From Microcoleaceae cyanobacterium (GTDB lineage Bacteria; Cyanobacteriota; Cyanobacteriia; Cyanobacteriales; Microcoleaceae): a stretch of 49,109 nucleotides of DNA. The notes beneath the pieces were generated by a model, which had not been told where the DNA came from, made no database searches, and saw only the letters and a program-made list of their open reading frames with translations. Both the position numbers and the translations under genes were made by a program. The stretch covers positions 1-49,109 of the forward strand of contig JBOFUV010000017.1 of the NCBI GenBank assembly GCA_051652765.1, written 5' to 3'. This document shows, one piece after another, positions 21,209 to 44,164 of this stretch (position 1 is the stretch's first letter; each line of letters begins with the position of its first letter).

Positions 21209-24200
21209 CTACTGGGGTACAACTGCAGGTGGACAAGATGGGTGACCCAAGCCCGCGCCTTGAGGGGTTGCGTGAGTGGGATGAGCGGTGAGAACGACTT
21301 GCCCGGTAGGTGTTATTTCCCATCCTTGAGCTTGCTGAACTACTGGACTATGCTCTCGCTGACGAACAATAACTGCTGGGTCATTTGTTCGTGAGGGTAG
21401 TTCTTGGGCTGTTTTCTGTTCTCGACTGCCTGATTCCCATTCGATTAATCCCTGCAATACAGTCAAAGGTTCAGTGGGACTCGGGGGCAAACCGCCTCGT
21501 CCAGTGACGATGAAAGAACTGCCTTTGGCCACTCGACCCTCTTCAGGAGCACAAAGATCCTGGGCAATGATTGAAGCTGCATCAAGAACATTGGTCGGCA
21601 GTTGGAGGATACCTTGGGCTGGGTCAACGGTAGTATCAATCTCAACAGTTCCATCAAATCCAAATTCTGAAGTTGCAGTGATCGCACTATCCCGGTCAAG
21701 AAACACTCCCTCAGACTGAATTTGAATGTTTCCTCCGGAACTCTCCACTGCGTTGGCACTGATTTGACTGTTTCGGGCGATCAGCAGGTCAGTGTTAAGG
21801 GTGATATTGCCGCCTGTGGCAGTTCCTGTGGCGTTCGTGGTCATCCTACTATCCTGTAACTCAATGAGCGGAACGTTCAGCGTAATGTTGCCCTCGCCAC
21901 TGGCGGTTTCAGCACTGAGGACTCCATTATTGTTCATGCTCAGCACGTTGGACTGAACGATTAAAGAACCTGCTGCTCCAGTTGCCGAACTACTGGCGGT
22001 GATTTCTGCATCCTCTTGTACCGTAATGCGATCGCTCTGAATTGAGATATTGCCCCCATCTCCTGTCCCACGCCCCAAATTAACGGCAGATAAATCCTGA
22101 ACAGCAGCCACAATCCCACTCGGAAGCTGACCATTGGCAGAGCGGCCTGTGAGTTCAATGTTGTCAACTCGAAGGGTTAAGTCTCCGCTACTGCCGGGGC
22201 CAGAGGTTCCTGCCCGAACTTGCCCCCCATCCCGAAGAATCAGGTTCTGAGCTTCAATGGTCATGTCACCCCCATTTCCGCCTTCATCCAAAAAGACTGA
22301 GGTGAAAAAGCTGCTCGGTAAAAATTCATTCCCAAACGCTCCTGTAATCTCAATCTCAGGGCTGCGAATAGTTAAATTACCACTGTTGCCTCCTCCGAAG
22401 GTTCCCGCGCCAATTTGGGCTCCGTCAGCTAGGGTAATCCGTTGAGCGTCAATCGATAGGTCTCCGCCCTGACCCGTACCCCCAACAACTGTTGTCAAGA
22501 TGCCGCTGGTAGATTGATAACCTAAGGCTTGAAAAAACGCCTGAAACTGGGGTGTTGAGTTGTTAACGGCCCCTGTCCCAACGGCTTCGATTTGATTGGC
22601 ACTGAGATTAATTGTTCCACCCTGACCTGAACCAAACACACTCGCCTGAATTAAAGCGCCACCCTGTAAACTCAGGCGTTGAGTGGTGGTAATCGCAATA
22701 CTTCCCCCGGCCCCAGCTCCAAAAGATTGAGTCACAATTCCACTGGGGGTCATCCCATCAGGAGAAATGCCACGGGCTGTCAGGGAATCGGCCCGAATAT
22801 TGATTTCTCCGCCTCGACCTGCACTGGTCGTGGAAGCCGCAATCACTCCCCCGTCTAGAAGCTGAATATTCAACGCATCAATGAATAAGTTTCCGGCTTG
22901 GCCCTTTCCATCGGTGTTCACGGTTGCTAAGGAGCCTCCTCTCACAATCAGGTTTTTGACTCCAAGCACCAAATTTCCGGCTGATCCACTGGCGAGGGTA
23001 CTTGCGGTTAACACGGCTTTGCTGTCGATCACCAGGTTATCTGCCAGGATGGTTAGATTTCCTGCCTGACCACTCCCAGCGGTGCTGGCCGTGGTTACAG
23101 CCCCGGTTTGCAAGGTCATGTCTCTGGTCTGAATGAACAAATCTCCCGCATTGCCAGTACCAATTGCACCAGGGGTGAGAAACGACAAATCTTCAACTTC
23201 GGCCACAATGCCACTCTGGAGGGGAATATCTGGGTTGGGAGACACTCCCGCCATGTCAATCACATCCACTACAACCCTCAAATTGCCGCTATCTCCTGGG
23301 CCTGAGGTTCCAGCTCGAACCTGGGCTCCATCCCGTAACACCAGGCGTTGAGCGTTGAGGGTTAAATCGCCTCCCGCTCCCGTGGCTCCCTCAAGAAAAA
23401 CAGATGTAAATAAACTACTAGGAGGAAAGCCCGCTCTTGAAACACCACGGGCTTGCACTGAATCAGCATTGACCGTGAGGTTGCCACTATTTCCCAAACC
23501 AAAGGTACCCGTGCCAATCCCGGCTCCATCTTCTAGGGTGATCCGTTGGGCATTGACTTCTATCTCGCCCCCCTGTCCTGAACCTCCCGGCAAGACAGTG
23601 GTGAGGATTCCACTGGGAACCTGAGCGTTTGAAGCGTCCTGAAGTAAAGAAAATACAGGGTCTGTACTTGCAAAGGGAATTGTCCCACTGGCTTGAATCT
23701 CATCCGCATTAACCGTAATCTGCCCACCGTTGCCAGACCCCAGAACATTCGAGCGAATGCCCCCGCCATCTCGCAGAATCAGTTGGGGTGTGTTGATCAG
23801 AATATCACCTGCATTGCCGCTAGCTATAGCTTGGACGTTAATCCCACTAGCAGTGGTATCGCTGGCCGGAGATATGCCGATCGCGGTAATGCGATCGCGC
23901 GCATTGACCTCTACATTGCCACCCCGACCAGAACTAAAGGTTGAGGCAACAACCAGACCTCCATTCTCGAGGGTCAGGTTTTGGGTGTTGATCTCAATAT
24001 TTCCTGCGTTTCCGCTTGACCCCAGACCTGCAGCACTGGAGAGGGTACTATCCAACAACTGAATGTCGTTGGCATTCACTAGAATAGTCCCAGCCTGTCC
24101 CCGGCCAAACGTTTCTGCGGCTACCCTAGCCCGGTTCTCCAGCAGGAGTTGGTTTGTCTCAATCTCAATATTGCCGCCATTGCCATCTTGAGGCAAATTT

Positions 24201-27151
24201 GTCCCTGCCGTGTTTGTTGTCAGAACAGCCTCGTTTTGAAGCGTAACCGTGTCACTTTTGATTGAAATATTGCCACTATCCCCACTGCCTCGGGTGGCGG
24301 CACTGATAGCCGCTCCGTTTTGCAGGGTAATCGTGTCACTGTTGAGGAAAATATTGCCACCTTGACCCCTTCCAACGGCTCCTTCAACTAAGACACTGAG
24401 GTCTTCTACTTCTGCCGTAATCCCACTGGCAAATAGGCCGGAAAAACCTGTCGCATGAACTTCACCCGCCGTGACCGTAATGTTGCCGCTGTTGCCGAAC
24501 CCAGACGTTCCCGCCCGAACTTGCCCACCATCGATTAGGGTGAGGCGAGGAGTATCCACGATTAAGTCTCCGCCCTGGCCTGTTGCACTGGGTAGTACAG
24601 AGGTGAACAGACTACTGGGTGGAAATCCCGCAACAGAAGTGCCCCGAGCTTCGATGAATTCACTGGCATTAGCAGTTAAGTTGCCGCTGTTGCCTGAACC
24701 AAAGGTTCCGGTTCCAATGACCCCTCCCTCGGTTAGAGTCAAGCGCTGAGTATTGACCGTTAATGCCCCCGCTGAACCTGTGGCTCCGGGTTCAACTAGG
24801 GCCAGAATCCCGCTGGGAAACCGTCCTCCCAGAAATTGTAGGATCAGGGATTGCTGCGGATCTGAACTTTGACCTGCCCCAGACCCCATCACTTGAATTT
24901 CTGGGGCGTTCACCGTTAGCGTGCCCCCCTGCCCAGAACTGAAGACGTTGGCTCCCAATTGAGCGCCATCTTGCAAGGTCAACCGTTCAGTTGTAATCGT
25001 TAAGTTGCCGCCATCCCCGGAACTGCCAGAGCCAACATCACTAAACAAGCCGCTAATGGTCGAACCGTCCAGAGACAGACCCATTGCTTTAACATCAACT
25101 GCATTCACCTCAATGTTGCCGCCCTTGCCGGGGCCAAAGGTTCCAGCCCGAATTTGTCCACCATTTTGTAAGGTGAGTTGGTGAGTATCAATCAGAATAT
25201 TCCCCCCATTACCCCTACCCAGGGAACCGGGAATAACATCACTTAAATTTTCCACTTCCGCCAGAATACTGCTGGGAAATCGACCGTTGTTAGAAATGCC
25301 ATCTAAGTGAATCTCATGGGCCTGAACCGTAACATTCCCACTATTGCCAACTCCGGAGGTTCCGGCTCTGACCTGGCCGCCATCCCGCAGATTCAGGGTT
25401 CGGGTTTCTATTCCCAGGTTTCCACCCTGGCCTGTTGCTCCCGCCAGAACAGAAGTCAGGATACTAGTGGGGAAAAATCCATCTGAAGACGTGCCAATCA
25501 CATTGATTTCATCAGCTCGAACGTGCAATTGACCGCTATTTCCTGGAGCATTAATCGTTCCGGCTGCCACCAATCCCCCGTTTTGCAGGGTTAGACGCGG
25601 AGTGTTAACGGTTAAATCTCCCCCTTGCCCAATGCCTCCTGAAAAGACTGTGGTGAGCAAACCGGCGGGAAATTGACCATTGAATAAAGCCAGGGTTTGG
25701 TTCACTTGAGGAAATAGGCTCTCGCCTGGAGTTGTCCCAATTGCCTCAATGGACTCAGAGGCATTGACGATCATATTTCCGCCCTTGGCATTGCCAAAAA
25801 CGGCTGAGCCAACTTGAGCACCGTCCCGTAAACTCAAAGTTCGAGTGTTGAGGGTTAAGTTCCCGGCTTGCCCTGTGGCTTCAGGAAATACATCGGTTCG
25901 GATTCCACTGGAACTGTCCTGCAATGCTCCAATGGCTACTATTTCATCCGCCTGAACCCTGAGTGCTCCCCCTATACCATCCCCCGCATTCACCGACTCA
26001 ATTTGGGCTCCATTGCTTAAAGATAAACGCCGGGTGTTAACCGTTAAGTTTCCGCCCTGGCCAGTTGCACCTAGTTCAACGCTGGTAGAAAGTCCTCCCG
26101 CAAACAAGGGACTGACAAAAGCCCCAGTTAACTCTACTTGGTCAGCATTAACGGTTAAGCTGCTACCCTGATCTGAACCCAGCAACCGAGTCACAATCGA
26201 GGAACCACTGGCTAGGACTAAACGCTCTGCTGTAACGGTTAGATCCCCACCGGCTCCGTTGCCTAACGTGTTCCCTGAAATCACTGAACCTTCTGTTAAA
26301 GCAATCAGTCGCCCAACCGCTTGAAGACTGCCTGATCCAGGGCCACTCACATTTATTAATGCACCGTTCCGGAGCCGAATGTCTAACGGATTGGCAACAC
26401 GGGAAAAGTCAAGGACATAGCCTGTTTCGGTTAAATTCAACCCGACCAAACTCTCAGCATCGGCGCTACCGAGTTCAATCCGTCCTTGAGAAGCCGTTAA
26501 AATCCCGCCATCTAGAACGACAGTTCTACCGACTAATCCCAAAGTTTGACCCGATGCAATTTGAAGTCCGACTCCATTGGCAACGGATTGATTGACAATG
26601 CTGCCTCGATTCAAGGCTTGTAATTGATTGAAGAATAGGGCAGACGGATTAACTGTTAAGAGGGGATTTTGATTGGGTTGAAGTGCGCTAAAAAATCCGT
26701 CTTCTCCTAAGCGAATCTCATCGGCAGTTGTTGCTAGAAAAGATCCCCGAATATCTAAACTAGAATTTGGGCCAAAGATAATTCCATTGGGGTTAATCAG
26801 AAATAAATTGGCGTTCCCTAAAACCCCTAATTGTCCGAAAATATTGCTGGGGTTTCTACCCGTCACTCGACTGAGAATATTCTGAATTCCATTGGGATTG
26901 ATGAAATAAACGCTACGATTCTCCCCAACATTAAACTCTTGGAAACTATGGAACAAGTTTGATCCGCGACTTGCTCCGCCTTCAATTTGATCCCGCCCCG
27001 AGTTGACGGGGTTCACTACAGACCGTTCTGAACCCAGGGTATTATCGGGAACAATCTGGGCTTGACTAGGCGTTAGATTGGCTAATATTAGGAGAGCCGG
27101 AGAGAGAAAAATAGTTGAGGAAAAAAGGGAGAACAGGCAATTACGAGTCAT
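21209..27151 (-). CDS. Filamentous haemagglutinin-family exoprotein (TPS N-terminal domain, beta-helical repeats)
   Basis: AQIVPD.TL, NLFHSF.EFNV, ANLFLINPNGI.FG; many G.GG.I.I repeats; C-terminal F.VTGRGGLP and AQGW. Confidence 0.92.
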   Translation of the reverse strand: MTRNCLFSLFSSTIFLSPALLILANLTPSQAQIVPDNTLGSERSVVNPVNSGRDQIEGGASRGSNLFHSFQEFNVGENRSVYFINPNGIQNILSRVTGRNPSNIFGQLGVLGNANLFLINPNGIIFGPNSSLDIRGSFLATTADEIRLGEDGFFSALQPNQNPLLTVNPSALFFNQLQALNRGSIVNQSVANGVGLQIASGQTLGLVGRTVVLDGGILTASQGRIELGSADAESLVGLNLTETGYVLDFSRVANPLDIRLRNGALINVSGPGSGSLQAVGRLIALTEGSVISGNTLGNGAGGDLTVTAERLVLASGSSIVTRLLGSDQGSSLTVNADQVELTGAFVSPLFAGGLSTSVELGATGQGGNLTVNTRRLSLSNGAQIESVNAGDGIGGALRVQADEIVAIGALQDSSSGIRTDVFPEATGQAGNLTLNTRTLSLRDGAQVGSAVFGNAKGGNMIVNASESIEAIGTTPGESLFPQVNQTLALFNGQFPAGLLTTVFSGGIGQGGDLTVNTPRLTLQNGGLVAAGTINAPGNSGQLHVRADEINVIGTSSDGFFPTSILTSVLAGATGQGGNLGIETRTLNLRDGGQVRAGTSGVGNSGNVTVQAHEIHLDGISNNGRFPSSILAEVENLSDVIPGSLGRGNGGNILIDTHQLTLQNGGQIRAGTFGPGKGGNIEVNAVDVKAMGLSLDGSTISGLFSDVGSGSSGDGGNLTITTERLTLQDGAQLGANVFSSGQGGTLTVNAPEIQVMGSGAGQSSDPQQSLILQFLGGRFPSGILALVEPGATGSAGALTVNTQRLTLTEGGVIGTGTFGSGNSGNLTANASEFIEARGTSVAGFPPSSLFTSVLPSATGQGGDLIVDTPRLTLIDGGQVRAGTSGFGNSGNITVTAGEVHATGFSGLFASGITAEVEDLSVLVEGAVGRGQGGNIFLNSDTITLQNGAAISAATRGSGDSGNISIKSDTVTLQNEAVLTTNTAGTNLPQDGNGGNIEIETNQLLLENRARVAAETFGRGQAGTILVNANDIQLLDSTLSSAAGLGSSGNAGNIEINTQNLTLENGGLVVASTFSSGRGGNVEVNARDRITAIGISPASDTTASGINVQAIASGNAGDILINTPQLILRDGGGIRSNVLGSGNGGQITVNADEIQASGTIPFASTDPVFSLLQDASNAQVPSGILTTVLPGGSGQGGEIEVNAQRITLEDGAGIGTGTFGLGNSGNLTVNADSVQARGVSRAGFPPSSLFTSVFLEGATGAGGDLTLNAQRLVLRDGAQVRAGTSGPGDSGNLRVVVDVIDMAGVSPNPDIPLQSGIVAEVEDLSFLTPGAIGTGNAGDLFIQTRDMTLQTGAVTTASTAGSGQAGNLTILADNLVIDSKAVLTASTLASGSAGNLVLGVKNLIVRGGSLATVNTDGKGQAGNLFIDALNIQLLDGGVIAASTTSAGRGGEINIRADSLTARGISPDGMTPSGIVTQSFGAGAGGSIAITTTQRLSLQGGALIQASVFGSGQGGTINLSANQIEAVGTGAVNNSTPQFQAFFQALGYQSTSGILTTVVGGTGQGGDLSIDAQRITLADGAQIGAGTFGGGNSGNLTIRSPEIEITGAFGNEFLPSSFFTSVFLDEGGNGGDMTIEAQNLILRDGGQVRAGTSGPGSSGDLTLRVDNIELTGRSANGQLPSGIVAAVQDLSAVNLGRGTGDGGNISIQSDRITVQEDAEITASSSATGAAGSLIVQSNVLSMNNNGVLSAETASGEGNITLNVPLIELQDSRMTTNATGTATGGNITLNTDLLIARNSQISANAVESSGGNIQIQSEGVFLDRDSAITATSEFGFDGTVEIDTTVDPAQGILQLPTNVLDAASIIAQDLCAPEEGRVAKGSSFIVTGRGGLPPSPTEPLTVLQGLIEWESGSREQKTAQELPSRTNDPAVIVRQREHSPVVQQAQGWEITPTGQVVLTAHPTHATPQGAGLGHPSCPPAVVPQ

Positions 27152-34226: not shown

Positions 34227-34279
34227 CAAATCAAGGCTCCTAACGAACAACAATGCACCTACAGTGGTTTTTAAATTAG

Positions 34280-34380
34280 TGAGATCAACGCGGGTTTGGT
34301 CTGAGATCAATGCGGGTACGAAGCACGATCAACTTGATCTGAGTGTGAGATCAGTGTAGGTTCGATGAGCAATCAATCTG
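34280..34380. repeat. Degenerate 22-bp tandem repeat (TGAGATCAAYGCGGGT...)
   Basis: Units at 34280, 34302, 34324, 34346 and weakly 34368. Confidence 0.55.
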
Positions 34381-34421
34381 AACTTAAGCGTAACCCACTC
34401 AGGATCTATTCAACTATTGAG

Positions 34422-34505
34422 CTAGAAATAGCTTCTTCTATCATAGTGTTTGAGTTGAATCACGTCGCGCACCTGATCCAGTAGCTTTTTGGGGCGTTGT
34501 TCCAT
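34422..34505 (-). pseudogene. intI: Integron integrase 5' remnant (27 codons)
   Basis: Translates MEQRPKKLLDQVRDVIQLKHYDRRSYF*; the first 21 aa match the IntI N-terminal pattern (KLLDQVR..IR.KHYS..TE..Y); divergent from the cassette array. Confidence 0.85.
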
Positions 34506-34511
34506 TTGGGG

Positions 34512-34734
34512 TTTATACAGAAAATTGCAAGGTAATCCTCCGAATAAATCGATATTAGGCCGAACATTGCTGTGTTTCATCGTGAGGATATACGGAAAGT
34601 TTCAGGATAATCCTCAAATTTAGGATGTATACCCAGAAAGTTTCAGTATAATTACAGCATTAGGGTGGATTATATGGAAAGTTTCAGGGTAATCATCCCA
34701 AAAGCGTTGGTTATGCAGAAAATTTCAATATAAT
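34512..34734. repeat. Five 25-bp symmetric repeats, NTTA-N4-GAAA-R-TTTC-N4-TAAT
   Basis: Copies at 34512-34536, 34587-34611, 34628-34652, 34669-34693, 34710-34734; last four at an exact 41-bp period. Confidence 0.9.
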
Positions 34735-34746
34735 AACTAGTTATGC
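34728..34746 (+). other. Putative attI recombination site
   Basis: ATATAAT-AACTA-GTTATGC: L-like box, 5-bp spacer, R box; GTTATGCGGCT (34740-34750) is the exact reverse complement of AGCCGCATAAC at the first attC; no attC hairpin upstream. Confidence 0.8.
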
Positions 34747-34913
34747 GGCTTCGGTTATCGGTAAGGACGGTTTTTGAAAATCATCGATTGAGACAATCGG
34801 TGACAGAGCAAGATTCCGATAAAATCCAGCAAGAATTGTCTACAAGTTTGAAAGCTAGCTGAACTAGAATTTAGAGAGTAATTTCAAAGTGCTGTAACTT
34901 AGGAGCGCAAAGT

Positions 34914-35666
34914 ATGAGTTCAATGGCTGGTAAGGTTGCAATTGTGACAGGCGCAAGTTCGGGTATTGGTCGTGCCACCGCGATTGCATTTGGCAAAGCT
35001 GGAGCAAAAGTGGTGGTAGTGGCTCGCCGTGCAGACAAGGGAGAAGAAACCGTTCAACTTGTCAAAGAAGCAGGTGGCGAAGCGGTATTTGTTCAAGCAG
35101 ATGTCACGAAAGCGTCTGATATCGAAGAAATGGTCAAAAAGACAGTTGAAACCTATGGTCGCCTCGATTATGCATTTAACAACGCTGGTTCTGGAACCTC
35201 TGGCAAAATTGCTGACTTGTCGGAAACTGATTGGGATTTTGAGATTAATGCAAATCTCAAGTCGGTTTGGTTGTCAATGAAGTACGAAATTCCTGCAATG
35301 CAGCAATCAGGAGGTGGCGCGATCGTGAGTACCTCTTCTCAAGGCGCACTTCTTGGCGTTGCAAATTATGGAGCTTATGGGGCAGCAAAGGCTGGAGTGA
35401 TCGCTCTGTCTCGTGCAGCAGCGGCTGAGTATTCTGCTGACCGAATTCGGATCAACACCGTTAGTCCTGGCGCTGTAAAAACTGATTTATGGGCAGGAGC
35501 ACCCCCTGAAATGCTCGATCAAGTTGCTGCTGGAATTCCGTTACAACGTATTGGCGTACCAGAAGATATTGCTGAGGCGGTGGTTTGGCTTTGTTCAGAT
35601 GGGGCTGCGTTTGTCACTGGGCATAACCTAGTCGTTGATGGTGGATTTACAGCCGTTCAGAAGTAG
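34914..35666 (+). CDS. Short-chain dehydrogenase/reductase (cassette 1)
   Basis: TGASSGIG, NNAG, S...YGAAK, VDGG; RBS AGGAG. Confidence 0.95.
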   Translation: MSSMAGKVAIVTGASSGIGRATAIAFGKAGAKVVVVARRADKGEETVQLVKEAGGEAVFVQADVTKASDIEEMVKKTVETYGRLDYAFNNAGSGTSGKIADLSETDWDFEINANLKSVWLSMKYEIPAMQQSGGGAIVSTSSQGALLGVANYGAYGAAKAGVIALSRAAAAEYSADRIRINTVSPGAVKTDLWAGAPPEMLDQVAAGIPLQRIGVPEDIAEAVVWLCSDGAAFVTGHNLVVDGGFTAVQK

Positions 35667-35672
35667 CCAGCC

Positions 35673-35760
35673 GCATAACAACGGCGCTGCACCGGAACGC
35701 CTCGATTTGGTTGGCTGAGTGGCAAAGATTATCTGTGTCCGGTGAGCGCGAACGTTCTAC
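35673..35760 (+). other. attC site 1 (88 bp)
   Basis: R'' GCATAAC; arms GCGCTgCACCGGA / TCCGGTGAGCGC with one unpaired base; R' GTTCTAC. Confidence 0.92.
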
Positions 35761-35942
35761 CGCTTCGTTATAGGTGGTGGCAGTAATTTGAAACCGATCG
35801 GCGGTGTTGAGATTTGTGTTATTTGAAAGCGATCTGTGAGGCACTCGTTTGAAGACGATCCGTTGGCATCTAGCGTTAAGCCATTTGAAGGCGATCTGTG
35901 AGAGCAACGTTTTGAGGTTACGGTCTACGATTGCAAGACTAA

Positions 35943-36452
35943 ATGTTGAATGAATCTAGGATGAATTACGAAGTGCGAGCTTTAACAGATCATGATGAAC
36001 CCATTGTGTGGGAGATGTTGATGTATGCAGCACAGGAACCCTCGCTTCAAGCCGTTCAAGCACAGGATTGTTTAACCCATTATGCTGCTGATTGGGGACA
36101 AACCGGAGATATGGGGTTTGTTGCTTGCACCGAGAAACAGCCAATTGGCGCAGCGTGGTTGCGATTGTGGTTGAATACTGACAAGGGATTTGGCTATGTT
36201 GAGGACTCTATTCCTGAACTTGCAATGGCGGTGATTCCTGAGTATCGCGGCAAAGGGATTGGGACTGTTTTACTGATGCAGGTTCTCAAATCCGCTCAGA
36301 TAGACTATTCTGCTGTATCGCTCAATGTTCGTTCTAACAATCCAGTAGTTGCGCTATATCAACGAGCAGGATTTGTAAAAGTGGAAGGAAGTGAAGTCAT
36401 TAATCGAACTGGTGGAATCTCTTTCAATATGATTTGTAAGTTCAATTGTTGA
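35943..36452 (+). CDS. GNAT acetyltransferase (cassette 2)
   Basis: V.PEYRGKGIG motif A, N.VV.LY.R.GF. Confidence 0.9.
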   Translation: MLNESRMNYEVRALTDHDEPIVWEMLMYAAQEPSLQAVQAQDCLTHYAADWGQTGDMGFVACTEKQPIGAAWLRLWLNTDKGFGYVEDSIPELAMAVIPEYRGKGIGTVLLMQVLKSAQIDYSAVSLNVRSNNPVVALYQRAGFVKVEGSEVINRTGGISFNMICKFNC

Positions 36453-36461
36453 GTGCCAGCG

Positions 36462-36548
36462 GTAGAACAATTCGATTGCAGCGGACGGTTAGAGTCTTTT
36501 CGTCTGTCGTTCTAGTTTACTCGTAGCCGCTGACTAGGAACGTTCGAT
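36462..36548 (+). other. attC site 2 (87 bp)
   Basis: R'' GTAGAAC; TTGCAGCGGAC...GCCGCTGA arms; R' GTTCGAT. Confidence 0.88.
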
Positions 36549-36651
36549 CGCTTCGTTTCGATTGTTAGGATGTAGCTTGAATATTATCGGTTGGAAGTTT
36601 AGCATTAGATTGCTTTAAAGATTGAGATTAGGCAGTATTTACATTTTTTAG

Positions 36652-37302
36652 ATGCAACAGCTACCAGAGGATATAGAAATAAGATTTTTCAGATTCATGT
36701 ATGGTGAAGAACCTATCAGTGAGTTTGAGCAGTGGGTTTATGCCACAAGCACTTTGGAGGAAACGCTAGGTGATGAAGATTATTTCAATTTGATTTCATT
36801 GGATTTTGCAAAGCGAGGCAGCCAATATAAACTGATTAAGATTCTAGAGCGACATATTGATGCTGGTGAGTATGAAACTTGGAAACTGAAAAATCTGTTG
36901 AATCTATTTCTTAGCCAAAAGGGAGACTTACCGCTGATGCTGTGTGAGTTTTATGAGCTTTACTGTGATAGATTTTCTTTCTTGGACACGTTAGGTCTTG
37001 GATATGGTCTGGCAATCAGAGTTCCTCCAAATGGATATAGCTCAGAATATTGGCAAGAATTAACTGATAAAGAAAAGGAGAGCCTTCTTGATTCTATCTT
37101 GCCAGATGCAATAGACGAAGCTCGAAAAGTGCTGACTTGGCTGGATGAAGGCAAAATTGTAATCACAGATGAGCAGGATGAGTTAGGTCGTTATTTGTAT
37201 CTTGACAAGAGGAGTGAGAATGAAAAAGATCCAAATTGGCAAAGGGTGCAAACATTGTCAAACAACTCCAAATCTGGATCTTGGTGGAAATTTTGGCAGT
37301 AG
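36652..37302 (+). CDS. Hypothetical protein (cassette 3)
   Basis: 216-aa acidic, AT-rich ORF filling the cassette; ends WWKFWQ. Confidence 0.8.
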   Translation: MQQLPEDIEIRFFRFMYGEEPISEFEQWVYATSTLEETLGDEDYFNLISLDFAKRGSQYKLIKILERHIDAGEYETWKLKNLLNLFLSQKGDLPLMLCEFYELYCDRFSFLDTLGLGYGLAIRVPPNGYSSEYWQELTDKEKESLLDSILPDAIDEARKVLTWLDEGKIVITDEQDELGRYLYLDKRSENEKDPNWQRVQTLSNNSKSGSWWKFWQ

Positions 37303-37308
37303 CCAGCG

Positions 37309-37397
37309 GTCGAATAATCCCGTTCCACACCGACTGTATTGAGTTTTTTCGTTAAGTTCGAGAGGTTGTCTGCTGCGGGTGAGTTCAACCGTTAGCT
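37309..37397 (+). other. attC site 3 (89 bp, degenerate)
   Basis: R'' GTCGAAT (AAC changed to AAT); imperfect arms; ends GGTGAGTTCAACC-GTTAGCT (R'). Confidence 0.75.
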
Positions 37398-37548
37398 GGC
37401 TTTGTTTCTGGGTTGGGGCGTACCAGCAAGTGATCTGTGAGATTCTTGAGCTTGAAGGATGGAGCGATCGCAAAATAGTTACACATATTGAGTGACGATT
37501 TATATTTGACAGAGCAGTATTTTTGTAAATCGACTCAACAGTTTTGAC

Positions 37549-38409
37549 ATGAAGCGATCTGCCTCCTCAGTTCCAACCTTTGACTCAATACTTCTGCCCA
37601 CAATTCAGGCTCTACAAATTTTGGGTGGGTCTGGGACAACTGAGGAGATTTATGAAAAAGTGGTGCAGCTTCTCAATGTCCCTGATAAGGTGCTTGAAAT
37701 TCTGCATGGCAGTACATCACAAAGCGAGGTTGAATACCGACTTGGGTGGAGTCGAACTTATCTGAAGAAGTATGGGCTTTTGCAAAATTCAGCACGCGGT
37801 GTATGGTCTTTAGTTTCAACTTCCATCAATCTTGATGATCTTGATTCCAAAGAGATTGTTAAGACCGTTCGAGATGCTGATAAAAATAGGGCTGCATCTT
37901 CAGATGCATCAGATGAGGCTGTTGGAGCCATGGAAGCTTTAGAAGAACTTGCATGGCATCAACAGCTTCATAAAACGTTGCTATCTTTAGATCCGTCTGC
38001 GTTTGAGCGTCTGGCACAGCGTTTACTGCGCGAGTCTGGGTTTATTCAGGTACAGGTTACGGGTAAATCTGGTGACGGTGGGATTGATGGTGTTGGGATT
38101 GCTCGTATCAACGGCTTTTTGAGCTTTCACGTTCTCTTTCAATGCAAGCGCTATCAGGGTTCAGTCACAGCAGGTCAAATTCGAGACTTTCGTGGAGCAA
38201 TGCAAGGGCGTACTGATAAGGGTTTATTTATCACAACTGGTACATTTACCAGAGACGCGATCAAAGAAGCTACACGAGATGGCGCACCACCCATTGATCT
38301 GATAGACGGTGAACAGTTAGTTCAACGCTTGAAAGAGTTGGGTCTTGGTGTCAAGATAACAATGATCGAGTCAGTTGAAATCGATATCGATTGGTTCACA
38401 AAGATTTAA
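37549..38409 (+). CDS. mrr: Mrr-family (type IV) restriction endonuclease (cassette 4)
   Basis: Mrr_N winged helix (R.GWSRTYL.K.GL....RGVW); catalytic AFERL, DGGIDG, QCKRY, FITT.TFT, LIDG..L. Confidence 0.9.
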   Translation: MKRSASSVPTFDSILLPTIQALQILGGSGTTEEIYEKVVQLLNVPDKVLEILHGSTSQSEVEYRLGWSRTYLKKYGLLQNSARGVWSLVSTSINLDDLDSKEIVKTVRDADKNRAASSDASDEAVGAMEALEELAWHQQLHKTLLSLDPSAFERLAQRLLRESGFIQVQVTGKSGDGGIDGVGIARINGFLSFHVLFQCKRYQGSVTAGQIRDFRGAMQGRTDKGLFITTGTFTRDAIKEATRDGAPPIDLIDGEQLVQRLKELGLGVKITMIESVEIDIDWFTKI

Positions 38410-38424
38410 TACAATGGAGGCTGA

Positions 38425-38667
38425 ATGGTTACAACTCTTAATAAGCCATCTTTTCTGATTCATGAAATCCGGCTTGAAAAAGTTGGCAACTGGAATCTAT
38501 TCAAATTCAGTGAGTCTCTTCAACTGCGAATGGAGAACTTTTTAGAAAAAAAGAAAGCCGATCAACTCACTCCCGACGAAATTGCGGAATTGGATGCGAT
38601 CGGAGAGTTAGATCGTATTTTTACTCATATCAACGCAATGCTCGCTGCTCAAAATGCCAATCAATGA
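38425..38667 (+). CDS. Small hypothetical protein coupled to the HNH gene (cassette 4)
   Basis: RBS GGAGG; 80 aa; LLEK-like...LTPDE.AELD helix; overlaps the HNH start by 14 nt. Confidence 0.75.
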   Translation: MVTTLNKPSFLIHEIRLEKVGNWNLFKFSESLQLRMENFLEKKKADQLTPDEIAELDAIGELDRIFTHINAMLAAQNANQ

Positions 38668-39106
38668 TGAACTCAAGCAAGCTATTCGAGAGCGTGCTAA
38701 ATATGTCTGCGAGTATTGCCATTCTTCAGAGCGGTTGAGTGCTAATCGGTTTACCGTTGATCACATCATTCCAAAATCTTTGGGTGGTTCTGATCAACTT
38801 ACTAATCTTGCACTTGCCTGCCGTCGTTGTAATGAGAGACGTTATAACTTTGTGGCTGGTATTGATCCAGAGACTCAGGAAATTGTTCCTATTTTTAATC
38901 CTCGCCAACAGAAGTGGGCGGCGCACTTTGTCTGGCTAAATCAAGGCGTTGTAATAGAAGGAACCACACCAATTGGTCGCGCAACTTGCCTTCGGCTTGA
39001 TTTAAACGATACTCGTTATCCAGAGGAAGATTCTATTCGAGAAACAAGACGGTTTTGGATAAAAACTGGGTTACACCCACCAGCAGATGATCCGAGCCAA
39101 GTTTGA
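38654..39106 (+). CDS. HNH endonuclease (cassette 4)
   Basis: CEYC, VDHIIP...GG....NLALACRRCN, FNPR...W..HF, T.IGRAT. Confidence 0.92.
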   Translation: MPINDELKQAIRERAKYVCEYCHSSERLSANRFTVDHIIPKSLGGSDQLTNLALACRRCNERRYNFVAGIDPETQEIVPIFNPRQQKWAAHFVWLNQGVVIEGTTPIGRATCLRLDLNDTRYPEEDSIRETRRFWIKTGLHPPADDPSQV

Positions 39107-39125
39107 AGTTGTGTTGCTGCCAGCC

Positions 39126-39211
39126 AGCTAACACTGCGTTGGTGCGGACGGAACAGAGGTTATCGGTGAGAATTCGAGGTTGCCTGCCGCTGCACAACTT
39201 CACCGTTAGTC
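39126..39211 (+). other. attC site 4 (86 bp)
   Basis: R'' AGCTAAC; GTTGGTGCGG...CCGCTGCACAAC arms; R' GTTAGTC. Confidence 0.9.
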
Positions 39212-39294
39212 CGCTCCGTTTTAGTCTTCAGGAAAGCAACTAACAACTACTCATTTCAAATTGGTGTTGCTGAAAGGTAGATTAGCGCACAATC

Positions 39295-39762
39295 ATGAAC
39301 ATAATTACCTACAGACTCCCGCAGCTTGGAGACGAGCATCAAATCAGTGGTTGCATGTGGGCTTCTGCGGTTCTATGGGAACTCACGGATGGCACACCAG
39401 AAAGCGTTGCCGAATGGAAAAAGATATGTAGCCCAGAAGAATTAAGAGACAGAATCTTAAGTGGTGAGAAAACGCTAGTTGCAACCTGGAATGAAATCGT
39501 TGTTGGATTTATTGCCTTTAAGAGAGGCAATCATTTGTCACTGCTGTTCGTCCGAAGAGAGTTTTCTGGGCAAGGAATCGGTCAAGAACTTTTCACCCAA
39601 TGCAGCTATGATTTGGATGAAGTTACTGTCAACGCAGCAGAAGCAGCAGTTGGTTTTTACCAGAAAGTAGGGTTTATCCAAAGCGGCGATCGCTTTTTCA
39701 AGCATGGAATATGGGGAACACCGATGAAATGGATCAACCTTTCACACGAAGTCATGGAGTAA
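39295..39762 (+). CDS. GNAT acetyltransferase (cassette 5)
   Basis: LFV..EF.GQGIG, VNA...A.GFY.K.GF. Confidence 0.9.
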   Translation: MNIITYRLPQLGDEHQISGCMWASAVLWELTDGTPESVAEWKKICSPEELRDRILSGEKTLVATWNEIVVGFIAFKRGNHLSLLFVRREFSGQGIGQELFTQCSYDLDEVTVNAAEAAVGFYQKVGFIQSGDRFFKHGIWGTPMKWINLSHEVME

Positions 39763-39766
39763 TCCG

Positions 39767-40162
39767 ATGGAGAACCTGTCACTACTGTCCACACTCCACG
39801 AGTTAGAGTGCGAACTGCATCAGCCGCAGTGCCGAGCGGATCGAGAACGCTTGGCACAGTTGCTTGCTCCTGACTTCAAGGAGTTTGGTCGATCAGGCGC
39901 TTCCTACACGCGCGAGCACACGCTGATGTCATTGCCATCAGATCCAGATCCACCGCAAATCCATGCCCAAGATTTTGTGGTCAAACCACTCTCAGCCTCG
40001 ATTGCGTTGCTCACCTATCGATCAGCTTATGTGAACCCATCGGGAGGGTTGTTCCGGCACACCAACCGATCATCGATTTGGCGGCTTGAATCATCAGGCT
40101 GGCGCATGGTGTTTCATCAGGGTACGCCTACAGACCCGTTTGACCAATCTGCAATCTTCTAA
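39767..40162 (+). CDS. NTF2-like/DUF4440-type protein (cassette 5)
   Basis: LLAPDF.EFG.SG, RSSIW....W.M.FHQGT. Confidence 0.85.
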   Translation: MENLSLLSTLHELECELHQPQCRADRERLAQLLAPDFKEFGRSGASYTREHTLMSLPSDPDPPQIHAQDFVVKPLSASIALLTYRSAYVNPSGGLFRHTNRSSIWRLESSGWRMVFHQGTPTDPFDQSAIF

Positions 40163-40176
40163 CACAGTGCGATCGC

Positions 40177-40364
40177 CCGTCCTGCGGCAAGTTGACGCTG
40201 TGCACATTGCAGCCGCCACCGTTCACGGCATGGACTACCTACTGACCTGGAATTGCAAGCACATCGCCAATGCTCAAATTCAGGGAAAGTTGGCGGAGAT
40301 CAGCCTTGATTTTGGATACGAGTTGCCAATTCTTTGTACACCCTATGAACTTCTTGGAGGTTGA
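40177..40364 (+). pseudogene. 3' remnant of a PIN-domain (VapC-like) gene
   Basis: DAVHIAAATVHGMDYLLTWNCKHIANA...PILCTP.EL is a PIN C-terminal half; N-terminal acidic motif and start are missing. Confidence 0.8.
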
Positions 40365-40588
40365 TGATGTTTCATGATGAGATTGTCGAAGAGATCCACA
40401 GAATTCGTGAAGAGTACTCTCGGTCATTCAACCATGACTTGAAAGCCATCTTTGCTGATTTGCAAAAGCAGCAAGCGGAAAGCGGAAGAGAAGTTGTGAG
40501 CTTATCGCGAAAGCCCGGTCTAACAACACGTTGGAGCGGACGGGCAGGAGACCTTGGTGGTGATGCAAAAGATACTAGCCGCCGCTGA
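40364..40588 (+). CDS. Small protein coupled to the PIN gene, possible antitoxin-like partner
   Basis: TGATG overlap, RBS GGAGG; DEIVEEIHRIREE...NHDL.AIF.DL; reads into attC5. Confidence 0.7.
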   Translation: MMFHDEIVEEIHRIREEYSRSFNHDLKAIFADLQKQQAESGREVVSLSRKPGLTTRWSGRAGDLGGDAKDTSRR

Positions 40589-40603
40589 TTTGAGCCGTTA
40601 GCT
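40518..40603 (+). other. attC site 5 (86 bp)
   Basis: R'' GTCTAAC; TTGGAGCGGACGG...CCGCCGCTGA arms; R' GTTAGCT. Confidence 0.88.
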
Positions 40604-40611
40604 GGCTTCGG

Positions 40612-41193
40612 TTATCGATTAGGAATCGCTTCAAGATTATTTGTTTGAGTCAAAATAGCGTGAACGAGTCTAATTTCCGTTAAACGCTCTGATGCATAGC
40701 TTGAAGATGCCATGACAAACCAACCTAGTCTTACAGAGTAAGCGATTTGGGCGCGTACTTTGGCATCGATCTCTGAAAATCCAAGCTGTAGAAACAAATT
40801 CTGAAGATAATCTAAGCGCTGTTCATCAACGCGCGCGATCGCCACTGCCGCCCTAGCATCATTAACCGACCAAACTCGGACAGCCTTTTCCAAGAGATTA
40901 TCGTCTTCAGCAGCAATCTCCAACAAACTCAATAATTTGGCGATAGGAGAACTGTTTAAGCCTTCAATTTGCTCAATAATGCTTTTGGTATTACGAGCCT
41001 CCCACTCACGCAATATTTCTTCTAATAAGTCGTCCCGGTTTTTAAAGTGCCAATAAAAACTGCCTCTGGTAACGTTTAATAATTTGGCTAAAGGATCGAC
41101 CCGAACTGCCTCAAGCCCTTTCTCTATGAGGGTTTGAATGCCAATTGCTAGCCAGTCTTGCCGACCAAGTTTTGATGCGATCTCTTTTTCCAT
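40612..41193 (-). CDS. TetR/AcrR family regulator (cassette 6)
   Basis: HTH LAK.LNVTRGSFYWHFKNRDDLL. Confidence 0.93.
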   Translation of the reverse strand: MEKEIASKLGRQDWLAIGIQTLIEKGLEAVRVDPLAKLLNVTRGSFYWHFKNRDDLLEEILREWEARNTKSIIEQIEGLNSSPIAKLLSLLEIAAEDDNLLEKAVRVWSVNDARAAVAIARVDEQRLDYLQNLFLQLGFSEIDAKVRAQIAYSVRLGWFVMASSSYASERLTEIRLVHAILTQTNNLEAIPNR

Positions 41194-41253
41194 ACAGTGG
41201 TGTATTGACAGTTTTTAATGAGGTTGCTACTATTCTGCCATACAGTTGTGTAC
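41192..41253 (+). promoter_or_regulatory. Sigma70-type promoter flanked by two putative TetR operators
   Basis: TTGACA 41205-41210, 17 bp, TACTAT 41228-41233; palindromes ATACAgtggTGTAT 41192-41205 and ATACAgttgTGTAC 41240-41253. Confidence 0.75.
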
Positions 41254-41275
41254 GGTAAAATAGTAGAGGAACAAT

Positions 41276-41707
41276 ATGACACCCCAAACTGAACGGAATA
41301 AATCGATCGCTCTATGCTTTGCCCAGGATGGCTGGGGCACAAACCCTACTTGGAAAGAGACCTGGGACGAGTTGATGAGTACGGATGTTGTTCATCATTT
41401 CAACAGTGCAGCAGCACCAATTGTTGGGTTGGAAGCAAACAAAACGTTCAATGAGAATCTGTTTCAAGGATTTCCAGACATTCATCACACAATAGAAGAG
41501 GTCGTTGCTGAGGGGGACAAAGTTGTGTATCGCACGACAATCCAAGGAACCCACACGGGCGAGTTTTTAGGAACTCCGCCAACAGGTCAAGCAGTTAAAG
41601 TTAACGATTTCACCTTGCTGCGGATTGCTGACGGAAAGATTGTGGAGTGGTGGTATGAATGCAATTTGTTGGAAGTGATGCGGCAGCTTGGGTTGGTTGC
41701 AGCCTAG
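41276..41707 (+). CDS. SnoaL-like ester cyclase (cassette 6)
   Basis: FPD....IE..VAEGDKV, GTHTGEF.G.PPTG, DGKIVE.W; RBS GAGGA. Confidence 0.92.
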   Translation: MTPQTERNKSIALCFAQDGWGTNPTWKETWDELMSTDVVHHFNSAAAPIVGLEANKTFNENLFQGFPDIHHTIEEVVAEGDKVVYRTTIQGTHTGEFLGTPPTGQAVKVNDFTLLRIADGKIVEWWYECNLLEVMRQLGLVAA

Positions 41708-41788
41708 ATTCCGATAGTTGAGAGAGGGTTTGCCTCATCTGCGCTGGTCGTTTTGCTGAGTTAAGAAACAGTCAGCTTGCCCAAGTCA

Positions 41789-41812
41789 AGCTAACCAATC
41801 ATTGCACCCAAC
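41789..41812 (+). other. Left half of attC site 6 (truncated)
   Basis: AGCTAAC-CAATCATTGCACCCAAC matches the left arm of the other sites; AGCTAAC is complementary to cassette start GTTAGCT; the selD stop follows immediately. Confidence 0.6.
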
Positions 41813-44164
41813 CTACCGCAATGTTATCGGATTAATACTGCATCCAACTTGAATTGGGAATTTCTCTTGTAGTTTGAATTTGATGGTGCCAATGATACAA
41901 GCATCTGAATACCCTCGATATTTTAGATCTTGCAAACAAGAATTGGCTTGATTCTTGGGAACAGATGCCAACAATCCTCCAGAGGTTTGAGGGTCAAATA
42001 ACAGGGGATACAATGGATGGGAACTGGCCCAATGAAGATCTGCAATTTCGGCACAGGAACGCATATTCTCCAGATACAGCGAACTGAAAATTTTCTGTTG
42101 CAAGGTTTCTGTAGCCCCCAACAACGAGGGCAGTGCGCCCAGATCCAAGTCTACTGTCACAGGAGAAGCCCGCACCATTTCTCCTAAATGTCCCAAAAGC
42201 CCAAATCCGCTAATATCTGTGCAGGCAGTCGCTTGATAGTGACGGAAACACTCAGCAGCAGCTTGATTCGATTGCAGCATAGACTCTACTGCGGCTTCAA
42301 TCCAGCGCCCCTTGGCCTTAAGCTGCCGATCGGCTGCAAATAAAGTTCCTGTTCCCAGGGCCTTGGTCAGAATCAAGGTTTGATCGGGTTTCAACCCGCC
42401 TTTTCGCAACAGGTGATCGAGACCGGCAAGACCGTTACACGTCAGCCCCAAGGCAAATTCTTTCCCTTCCAGGGTATGGCCCCCAATCAGAACAGCCCCA
42501 GCCTCCTGCAACACTTGAGCGACTCCCAACAAGGTTTGGTAGAGGGTGTCTGACAATTTACCCGGAGTAGAATGGGGTAATGTTACAACGGCTAGGGCAC
42601 TTTGGGGTTCAGCGCCCATTGCGTATAGATCATTCAAGCAGTGATTTGCCGTAATTTTGCCACAGAGAAATGGATCATCAATCAGGGCCGGAAAGTAATC
42701 CACCGTCTGCACTAATACTTGACCCAGAGGAATGCTAACAACAGCGGCATCTTCTGCTGCTTGTAGCCCAATCACAATATCTTCTCGATCAACCTCAGGT
42801 ATTTCCTGCTGAATTCGCTGCAACACCTGTCTTAAAACCGAACTACTCACTTTTGATCCGCATCCCGCACAGTGCATTTGGGGTGAATTTGCAGGGTTGA
42901 GCTTGGATACCGCAGGTTTAACCCCTAAATTGAAGGGCTGAACTCTTCTGGGGCTTGTGCCAAGCTGGCTTTTCGCCATTAGGGTAGACAAATCAGTGAA
43001 TTGGTTCATGAATTGGCGATCAATGTAATCCTTCCAGCGCCAGAATAATTTGTGGGGGCCAAACCCAAAGGAACCCTTAGACGCAATCGCCTGTTTATCC
43101 CCCGTGCCAATCAGAATTAAAAATTCTTTCTGAGGAACAAACGGCTGTAGCGGTTGTTCCAGTAGGGCGCATCGTAAATTTTCAAACAAAGGCTTTCCCT
43201 GACGCACTGCAAACACTCCAGCCTTGGGCCGAGGATGATTGACCATGGCAGCAACATCTCCCGTCGCGAACACTTGGGGATGGGACAGGGATTGCAGAGT
43301 ATCACTCACCTGGATAAACCCCTGTTCATTCGTTGTCAATCCTGATTGGGTTAGCCAGGATGCGGCTCCAGCTTGAGTCACCCAGAATAGGCGATCGCAG
43401 GGAACGGTCAGTCCAGAAGCACATCGAACCGCAGTTAAGCCATTTGCAAGATTTTGAATCTCAACCACTGTTTCTTGCAGGTAAACTTGAACCCCTCGAT
43501 CAGATAACAGTTGCAGTACCCGCTGACTCACCCAGGAATGGCGCTCAGGTAGCAGTCGATTTCCCCTGTGAAACAGGTGAAGTTTCAAATTGTTTAAGGG
43601 CTGATGAGTAGAGTGATAAATCTGCTCCAAACACCCCTGGATTCCCAAAGCCAGTTCAACGCCTCCGGCCCCCCCTCCAACAATCGCCAAACTAATGGGG
43701 CGCTCCGGTTGACAGGCAATTTGTTCTCGAAGTTGATCCCAATACGCCAGAAACTTGGAAATTGGTTTTGCCGGAATGGCATATTCAGCCGCTCCTGGAA
43801 CCGTAAAGGTGGCCGGAGTACTACCGATATCAATTGAAAGTAAATCAAACGCAATTGGTGGATAATTGGCACAAAGCACACGCTGATTCACCAGATCCAA
43901 GCCGACTGCCTGATCAACAATCATTCGGGCTCGGGCAAACTGCGCTAAAGGCCGTAGATCAATATGACAATCATCAAATTTATACAATCCCGCCACGTAC
44001 CCCGGCAACATCCCAGAATAGGGCGTATGAGCAACATCTGTAATTAGCGTCAAACCCACTCCAGACAGAGGATTCATCCCAAACTGCTTGAGGGCGATCG
44101 CGTGACTATGACCCCCACCAATCAAAACCAGATCTTTAGCAACAGGCAGGGAATCATACATCAT
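41813..44164 (-). CDS. selD: Selenide, water dikinase fused to an N-terminal FAD-dependent oxidoreductase domain
   Basis: GGGHSH and GGGAGGVE Rossmann motifs; CAGCGSK, QTVDYF, ND.YAMG, GGHT, TDISGFGLLGH, DPQTSGGLL. Confidence 0.92.
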   Translation of the reverse strand: MMYDSLPVAKDLVLIGGGHSHAIALKQFGMNPLSGVGLTLITDVAHTPYSGMLPGYVAGLYKFDDCHIDLRPLAQFARARMIVDQAVGLDLVNQRVLCANYPPIAFDLLSIDIGSTPATFTVPGAAEYAIPAKPISKFLAYWDQLREQIACQPERPISLAIVGGGAGGVELALGIQGCLEQIYHSTHQPLNNLKLHLFHRGNRLLPERHSWVSQRVLQLLSDRGVQVYLQETVVEIQNLANGLTAVRCASGLTVPCDRLFWVTQAGAASWLTQSGLTTNEQGFIQVSDTLQSLSHPQVFATGDVAAMVNHPRPKAGVFAVRQGKPLFENLRCALLEQPLQPFVPQKEFLILIGTGDKQAIASKGSFGFGPHKLFWRWKDYIDRQFMNQFTDLSTLMAKSQLGTSPRRVQPFNLGVKPAVSKLNPANSPQMHCAGCGSKVSSSVLRQVLQRIQQEIPEVDREDIVIGLQAAEDAAVVSIPLGQVLVQTVDYFPALIDDPFLCGKITANHCLNDLYAMGAEPQSALAVVTLPHSTPGKLSDTLYQTLLGVAQVLQEAGAVLIGGHTLEGKEFALGLTCNGLAGLDHLLRKGGLKPDQTLILTKALGTGTLFAADRQLKAKGRWIEAAVESMLQSNQAAAECFRHYQATACTDISGFGLLGHLGEMVRASPVTVDLDLGALPSLLGATETLQQKIFSSLYLENMRSCAEIADLHWASSHPLYPLLFDPQTSGGLLASVPKNQANSCLQDLKYRGYSDACIIGTIKFKLQEKFPIQVGCSINPITLR

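What the first reader, a model, noticed from the sequence alone, without database searches (positions are those of the whole stretch)
34422..41812. Cyanobacterial chromosomal integron with a six-cassette array and uniform attC sites
Seen: five imperfect palindromes of 88, 87, 89, 86 and 86 bp each close a cassette, with R''-AAC...GTT-R' architecture and shared arms. The first 11 nt of each cassette are complementary to that cassette's own R'' end: 11/11 for cassettes 1, 2 and 4, 9/11 for cassette 3, 8/11 for cassettes 5 and 6. Known: this is the expected trace of circular cassettes integrated at G/TT by IntI. Inference: uniform attC length suggests a sedentary, lineage-specific integron; integrons are little studied in cyanobacteria.
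Basis: partly seen in the sequence, partly recalled or inferred. Interest (0 to 1): 0.88.

Follow-up and report, generated by a model that had tools for sequence, protein, structure and literature searches.

The report
Scattered integrase-less cyanobacterial integron landing pads
This is a real gene-capture array (integron) in a cyanobacterium, but its enzyme gene is cut to a stub, and the genome carries about twenty such enzyme-less docking sites, an arrangement that also turns up in related cyanobacteria.

Summary
All five hit a covariance model on the bottom strand. Cassettes 1, 4, 5 and 6 recur in other organisms in other contexts; the cassette 1, 4 and 5 matches start at the G|TT boundary.

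The interpretation needs three corrections.
(1) intI is a 21-codon stub, and no intact intI was found in this 99.97%-complete draft.
(2) 'Cassettes 5 and 6' are deletion chimeras, so at least eight cassettes contributed.
(3) It is not one sedentary locus. The genome has 22 attI sites, 13 with one identical intI-truncation junction yet nearly all with different first cassettes, and 82-92 attC hits.

attI sits at the end of 25-bp palindromes repeated every 40-41 bp. A motif built from it matches 115 of 251 genomes of the order (reversed control: 6), against 23 of 251 with a full IntI; 40 matches were spot-checked. Verdict: a new variant of a known kind. Dispersal mechanism and loading by IntI in trans are inferred, not shown.

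The parts
34279..34442 (-). 22-bp GATC-containing tandem repeats plus a ~70-bp linker. A genus-specific dispersed repeat, fused to intI codon 21 in 13 platforms of this genome
34422..34505 (-). intI stub: 21 codons of integron integrase (34505-34443), 6 linker-derived codons, stop
   Evidence: 86% nt identity over 63 nt to congener G002 intI, whose product passes TIGR02249
34512..34734 (.). six 25-bp palindromic units (starts 34512, 34554, 34587, 34628, 34669, 34710; spacing 42/33/41/41/41), inferred IntI-binding or accessory sites
   Evidence: binding not tested
34710..34746 (+). attI: last unit + 5-bp spacer + G|TT, crossover after G34740
   Evidence: aligns with G002 intI-attI up to the crossover; first-cassette complementarity across 17 platforms; cassette 1 matches start at 34740 in three metagenome contigs
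34741..35754 (+). cassette 1: SDR oxidoreductase (34914-35666) + attC1 (35673-35760)
   Evidence: 1 difference in 1017 nt to a contig of run X1 with other flanks
35755..36542 (+). cassette 2: GNAT acetyltransferase (35943-36452) + attC2 (36462-36548)
36543..37391 (+). cassette 3: 216-aa protein of no known family (36652-37302) + attC3 (37309-37397; R'' AAT variant)
37392..39205 (+). cassette 4: Mrr-type endonuclease (37549-38409), 80-aa ORF (38425-38667), HNH nuclease (38654-39106) + attC4 (39126-39211)
   Evidence: same unit at 90% over 1817 nt between other neighbours in G002
39206..40190 (+). cassette 5a: GNAT (39295-39762) + DUF4440 (39767-40162); its own attC is missing
   Evidence: same start directly after an attI in G035; no CM hit here
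40191..40597 (+). cassette 5b remnant: last ~57 codons of a 158-aa PIN-like gene, small partner ORF (40361-40588), attC5 (40518-40603)
   Evidence: full-length relatives hit Pfam PIN at E 2-4e-4, below the curated cut-off
40598..41721 (.). cassette 6a: divergent TetR (-, 40612-41193) and SnoaL (+, 41276-41707); its attC was lost at a 5-bp microhomology (41717-41721)
   Evidence: the G675 SnoaL homolog continues into an R'' that is 11/11 complementary to the cassette start; runs X4 and X6 also end at 41721
41717..41840 (+). cassette 6b remnant: 3' half of a multi-copy non-coding cassette plus the left half of its attC, which overlaps the 3' end of the selD-fusion gene

Best explanation
This is a genuine integron platform that has lost its integrase.

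Shown: IntI-type G|TT junctions built the array; intI is reduced to codons 1-21; internal deletions later fused cassettes and cut the last attC; the platform (stub + 25-bp repeats + attI) is one of about 22 dispersed copies.

Inferred: platforms multiply by non-site-specific duplication or transformation-type recombination, anchored by homology in the stub and attI spacer and ragged on the far side. That also spread one truncation junction over two attI lineages. The orphan attI sites stay intact, and were probably loaded at least partly by IntI supplied in trans from a sister platform or incoming DNA. The result is many short arrays rather than one long one. Multi-copy, mostly integrase-less attI platforms appear common across this cyanobacterial order.
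For: Stub and no intact intI: no TIGR02249 match over cut-off in G000, and no close remnant beyond IntI codon 117.

Platform family: 22 attI sites, 13 with the same junction; first cassettes share sequence in only one pair; own R'/R'' match 9.1 vs 7.0 permuted, 0 of 20000, n=17. The junction occurs on both attI lineages, which are about 62% identical. Left flanks are nested and ragged, sharing 269/227/140/69 bp. Congener G002 has 6 intI starts, one nearly whole gene with a nonsense codon and five separately truncated.

attC structure: 93.3% paired, covariation 0.401 vs 0.110 shuffled.

Recent cassette traffic: cassette 1 differs at 1 of 1017 nt from a copy in another context, whereas linker copies differ by 3-21%.

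Order-wide: motif in 115 of 251 genomes vs control 6; full IntI in 23 of 251. Of 40 sampled matches, 28 of 39 are followed by R'-like bases the motif does not specify, 16 have a downstream attC on the expected strand and none on the wrong one, and only 6 have an intI remnant.
Against: The assembly is in 158 contigs and 10 of 20 attI sites lie within 2.2 kb of a contig end, so an unassembled intI or tandem neighbours cannot be excluded. Different first cassettes do not prove post-truncation IntI activity, because the junction module could have recombined into platforms that were already loaded. The tree of attI spacers does not resolve junction copies. No mobility gene, terminal repeat or target duplication was seen, and only 1 of 12 independent intI breakpoints lies at a G|TT. 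24 of 40 sampled motif matches had no attC detected within the ~3 kb fetched. The motif was derived partly from genomes in the tested sample, and it misses 8 of 28 genomes with intI matches.
Confidence: 0.72

Rival explanations
1. Pure decay. Many complete integrons were acquired or duplicated, each was loaded by its own IntI, then inactivated; the shared junction spread afterwards by recombination in the 63-bp stub. All arrays are now frozen CALINs.
For: The junction sits on two diverged attI lineages, which needs recombination in the stub. G002 platforms were truncated separately. The window array is eroded by deletions. intI pseudogenes and intragenomic duplicates are common (PMC2426708, passages), and inactivation stabilises arrays in Xanthomonas.
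Against: Cassette 1 is 99.9% identical to a copy elsewhere, against 3-21% linker divergence. attI motifs remain intact in 18 copies. Remnants are always attI-proximal, with no close C-terminal intI piece in G000.
Confidence: 0.35
2. IntI moves its own platform. Recombination between an attC and a secondary G|WT site inside or beyond intI circularises stub + attI + cassettes, and the circle reinserts elsewhere. This would automatically leave only 5' stubs.
For: In G002 C63 an attC is joined at G|TT directly to intI nt 209, with no remainder of intI in the 6 kb fetched. Platforms lie downstream of same-strand attC sites at G000 C116, C138 and C61 and at two G194 loci. attC x attG insertion and imprecise excision are demonstrated (10.1101/2022.09.11.507474, passages).
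Against: 11 of 12 independent breakpoints, including the window's, are not at G|WT. Left ends are ragged, at HIP1 or at unrelated points. The window's last attC is cut, not complete.
Confidence: 0.2
3. One reading: one sedentary chromosomal integron with a working integrase at or near this locus.
For: Uniform attC sites, and full IntI genes exist in relatives.
Against: The stub ends after codon 21 with the DLH gene immediately beyond. About 22 platforms exist. The location is not conserved in either congener.
Confidence: 0.05

Closest known systems
[quoted passage not shown]
   Same: At least 2 attC sites, no functional intI nearby, short array, cassettes of varied function.
   Different: Keeps an intact-looking attI and an intI stub, where the paper found 95% of CALINs without a recognisable C-terminal intI pseudogene and says attI could not be searched for in most integrons. 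Here the platform itself is multi-copy (22) and dispersed.
Sedentary chromosomal integrons (Xanthomonas ilvD integron; definition in PMC8618304)
   Same: Chromosomal, homogeneous attC sites, TA-like, restriction and acetyltransferase cassettes, frequent intI inactivation.
   Different: Those occupy one conserved locus in nearly all genomes. Here there are about 22 loci with short arrays and no conserved location in the genus.
attI1 with accessory direct repeats DR1/DR2 (PMC3146285, passages)
   Same: A simple site ending in G|TT, with extra core-like boxes upstream.
   Different: Upstream are up to six 25-bp palindromic units at 40-41 bp period rather than two direct repeats. That paper found most environmental attI sites lacked the repeats.
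SALIN / attG insertion (10.1101/2022.09.11.507474, passages) and delta-attI cassettes (PMC12901181, abstract only)
   Same: IntI products scattered outside a single integron, and attI-derived sequence inside arrays.
   Different: Those disperse cassettes or short attI pieces. Here whole attI platforms with repeats and an intI stub are dispersed, mostly without G|WT ends.

Membership tests
Complete integron | intact intI (IntI-specific tyrosine recombinase) next to the array | tested here: not met
   21-codon stub; no TIGR02249 match over cut-off in G000; longest remnant 351 nt
Complete integron | attI with G|TT crossover, upstream of and divergent from intI | tested here: met
Complete integron | attC sites with R''/L''/L'/R' boxes, bottom-strand stem and extrahelical bases | tested here: met
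   invariant AAC/GTT; T-N6-C extrahelical pattern read from alignment A2; 93.3% paired, covariation 0.401 vs 0.110; five CM hits
Complete integron | cassettes are mobile units (R'/R'' complementarity, other contexts elsewhere) | tested here: met
Complete integron | Pc promoter driving the cassettes | tested here: inconclusive
   scan found 1 site vs 2.1 expected; a perfect -10 hexamer at 34729-34734 has a 3/6 -35; only 2 of 53 motif matches have a -35 of 5/6 or better
Complete integron | IntI-catalysed attC x attI recombination | not testable with these tools
   needs a bench assay
CALIN | at least 2 attC sites and no intI nearby | tested here: met
   five attC sites; the stub has no Pfam hit; IntegronFinder itself was not available
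Sedentary chromosomal integron | single locus conserved across related genomes | tested here: not met
   22 attI sites in G000; flanking DLH and selD-fusion genes lie on different contigs in G001 and G002, with no array at these positions
Sedentary chromosomal integron | homogeneous attC sites | tested here: met
   58 of 76 full sites are 86-89 bp; mean column identity 66%
Mobile integron / MITE-borne platform | terminal inverted repeats, target duplication or transposase | tested here: inconclusive
   no common precise end among left flanks; ends are eroded; no systematic transposase search was run

The most novel reading that the evidence does not exclude
Cyanobacteria of this order run a distributed integron. 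Integrase-less attI platforms, recognisable by a conserved 40-41-bp-phased palindrome array, multiply through the chromosome as non-autonomous landing pads. They are reloaded in trans whenever an intact intI passes through the population. Many cyanobacterial 'CALINs' would then be live, attI-bearing platforms, and genomes with attI would outnumber genomes with intact intI four- to five-fold.
Probability: 0.4. Interest if true: 0.82.

Novelty: new variant of a known kind. Interest (0 to 1): 0.64.

Why it matters
Cury et al. leave open where CALINs come from and whether they still take part in recombination, partly because attI could not be searched for. A usable attI signature for a cyanobacterial order, plus a genome with 13 platforms sharing one dated truncation, makes both questions directly testable: by strain comparison at orthologous platforms, and by a standard recombination assay. 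It would also mean integrase-based surveys undercount integron platforms in cyanobacteria, and it offers native landing sites for cassette delivery. The cassette cargo itself is ordinary.

Tried and rejected
- MFE folding of single attC bottom strands: not better than shuffles.
- 22-bp repeats as amplified attC half-sites: rejected. The best PWM score in the region was -0.85 against a median of 16.9 for real sites, and such clusters also occur without a platform, as does one linker paralog (C74).
- Linker as the natural 3' end of intI: no support in the full-length loci displayed (output partly cut). Pattern scans gave 2 unrelated hits in genome contigs and 0 in two metagenome scans.
- A truncated attC at 40157-40163: weak (PWM p about 0.003, 6/11 complementarity), so left open.
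- Empty-site search: failed, because gene order is not conserved in G001 or G002.
- Sigma-70 Pc: not supported.
- Rfam: 0 matches in 14.9 kb.
- Sequencing runs: none hold the organism (best share 0.12) and no RNA holder is listed. The joints between attC2 and attC5 are other attC sites of the family, not excisions.
- One search used a mis-spaced motif (G000 itself scored 0) and is uninformative; it was redone.
- Paper search was swamped by the word 'attitude' and is uninformative.
- Three look-ups in earlier findings returned nothing.
- No structure or complex prediction was run.
Full report
1. Observation. The window is contig C17 of a 5.04-Mb, 158-contig, 99.97%-complete genome. KaiA and NdhN mark it as cyanobacterial. 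An iterated HMM gave 92 attC hits on 36 contigs; 58 of 76 trimmed sites are 86-89 bp. I aligned 32 of 55 eligible non-window sites. The canonical bottom-strand structure is 93.3% paired, with compensatory change in 8 of 14 pairs and covariation 0.401 against 0.110 (0 of 500 shuffles; the tool warns that relatedness inflates this). The unpaired conserved T and C give a T-N6-C pattern, a type excised well by several integrases (PMC3053210, passages). The model hits the five sites on the bottom strand, and nothing else in the window above 11.5 bits. It finds 82 sites in G000, 19 in congener G002 and 0 in congener G001, with 150 candidates scored per genome. Training sites came from an HMM seeded with the window sites, so independence is partial. 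Single-site folding energies are unremarkable.

2. The cassettes are mobile units. Cassette 1 matches metagenome contigs from exactly 34740: to 35756 in run X1 (1 difference in 1017 nt) and to 35766 in X2 (5 differences), and X1 shows unrelated flanks on both sides. Cassette 4 lies in G002 at 90% identity over 1817 nt between different neighbours. The cassette-5 start sits directly behind an attI in G035. The two 8/11 scores are background, and relatives explain why. In G675 the SnoaL gene runs into an R'' that is 11/11 complementary to the cassette-6 start; the window instead switches, at a 5-bp microhomology (41717-41721), into the 3' half of a non-coding cassette that has 19 blast matches in the genome. 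'Cassette 5' is GNAT-DUF4440 joined to the last ~57 codons of a 158-aa PIN-like gene and its partner. So at least eight cassettes contributed. The last attC is cut near 41835-41840 and overlaps the end of the selD-fusion gene.

3. The integrase is gone. The minus strand from 34505 encodes 21 IntI residues, six unrelated ones and a stop. The region aligns with the 5' end of intI and attI of G002. TIGR02249 has no match over cut-off in G000. Against G002 intI, 12 remnants stop at nt 63, the longest reaches nt 351, and no close C-terminal piece exists. An unassembled copy cannot be excluded, and no public run holds this organism.

4. A dispersed platform family. G000 has 18 intI starts, 22 attI sites, 13 copies of one junction (12 after codon 21, one with the stub lost) and 23 clusters of a 22-bp repeat. 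That repeat occurs in 2 of 144 genomes of the family, both in this genus, and also away from platforms. First cassettes share sequence in only one pair (C50/C67), and match their own R'' at 9.1 vs 7.0 permuted (n=17; 5 sites had no downstream attC; 0 of 20000). The attI spacers form two lineages about 62% alike, both also present in G002, and the junction is on both; linkers are 79-97% identical. Left flanks are nested and ragged, then run into unrelated genes. G002 has six intI starts, one nearly whole with a nonsense codon and five cut at different points. Ten of 20 attI sites are within 2.2 kb of a contig end.

5. The attI signature. Six 25-bp palindromic units lie between the intI start and the crossover. 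In 29 loci with an intI N-terminus, 9 have three or more units, 21 of 31 spacings are 39-41 bp, and shuffles give 0.02 units against 1.76. The motif TAKRCNGAAANWKTCNRNNTAATNNNTAGTT (up to 2 mismatches) matches 115 of 251 genomes of the order; the reversed control matches 6. In the same sample IntI passes its cut-off in 23 genomes and matches at E<=1e-60 in 28, with 8 candidates scored per genome. By my hand count 20 of those 28 carry the motif, so 95 genomes have the motif without such an intI match. Twelve genomes have five or more matches (G000 18, G221 13, G039 12, G159 9); matches are not loci, and the motif favours G000. I fetched 40 matches chosen from those listed, weighted to multi-copy and intI-lacking genomes. 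The unspecified bases after GTT score as R'-like, above the 95th percentile of other GTT sites, in 28 of 39; 26 of 40 have further units upstream. Sixteen have a downstream attC on the expected strand and none on the wrong one; complementarity is 7.9 vs 6.4 (0 of 20000); 6 have an intI remnant. G039, G221, G159 and G142 hold only intI fragments and G262 gave no match. G194 shows dispersed sites on one 5.3-Mb contig.

6. Mechanism. Shown: IntI-type integration built the arrays, intI was lost, deletions eroded the array, and platforms are multi-copy. Inferred: homology-anchored, ragged-ended duplication spread platforms and the junction. Loading in trans is suggested by cassette 1 being far closer to an outside copy than linkers are to each other. 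It is not proven, because the junction can recombine into loaded platforms. IntI-driven platform movement has one clean example (G002 C63: attC joined at G|TT to intI nt 209), but only 1 of 12 breakpoints fits. That the 25-bp units bind IntI is inferred from their arms resembling the R box (consensus GTTRRRY, recalled) and from their phasing; a host regulator is possible. No Pc was established.

7. Known context. Cyanobacterial integrons and a cyanobacterial attC model are in print (PMC8352920; PMC8618304), as are frequent intI pseudogenes and intragenomic duplicates (PMC2426708; PMC3108266), CALINs, mobilisation in trans and attG insertion. PMC9024848 names four complete integrons per genome as notable in Klebsiella. 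The archaeal integron preprint was also read. All of these were read as keyword passages only, and PMC12901181 as abstract only. No supplements were read; those of the IntegronFinder papers may list cyanobacterial elements. Ten searches (91 uninformative) listed no paper describing multi-copy orphan attI platforms or this attI repeat array in cyanobacteria. The library lacks most subscription journals.

8. Verdict. A real array with ordinary cargo. It works like an integron; it is formally a CALIN, not a complete or sedentary integron. The unusual part is the dispersed, integrase-less attI family and its order-wide signature. New variant of a known kind; interest 0.64.

Noticed in passing
G000 C82:9433-9559 and 18 further blast matches; window 41717-41791: A ~220-bp cassette without an ATG-started ORF recurs in many arrays, twice as first cassette. 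Its top strand folds into a long hairpin (-42 kcal/mol as RNA, no shuffle control). The window's part has no Rfam match. Possibly a promoter or ncRNA cassette.
   Followed up: partly
L042 (G002:C63:2816-2902): An attC is joined at G|TT directly to nt 209 of an intI stub: an integrase gene cut at a secondary site inside itself.
   Followed up: partly
window 37460-38410: A contig of run X4 skips the Mrr gene inside cassette 4, suggesting a version with only the 80-aa + HNH pair.
   Followed up: no
window 41813-41840: The last codons and stop of the selD-fusion gene are attC-derived sequence; its C-terminus differs from G002's.
   Followed up: partly
window 34279-34370; G000 C63, C109, C134, C145; G002 C107: A genus-specific 22/44-bp GATC-rich tandem repeat (112 pattern matches in G000, 3 in G002, 0 in 142 other family genomes) sits among other small intergenic repeats.
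   Followed up: partly
G000 C22:53918-54006: One attC lies in inverted orientation within the C22 array.
   Followed up: no
G016:C1:4450106-4498212: Three near-full and three partial intI copies cluster within about 50 kb of one single-contig chromosome.
   Followed up: no
window 36652-37302: The cassette 3 protein has no Pfam, PADLOC or NCBIfam hit; its nearest Atlas clusters (0.91, low recognition score) are unnamed proteins, mostly from Bacteroidota. It is the lowest-GC cassette (38%).
   Followed up: partly
window 21209-27151: A 1980-aa repetitive protein whose N-terminus looks like a filamentous-haemagglutinin secretion domain (recalled, not scanned).
   Followed up: no
L049 (G001:C28): The selD-fusion homolog in G001 ends early, apparently frameshifted.
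   Followed up: no
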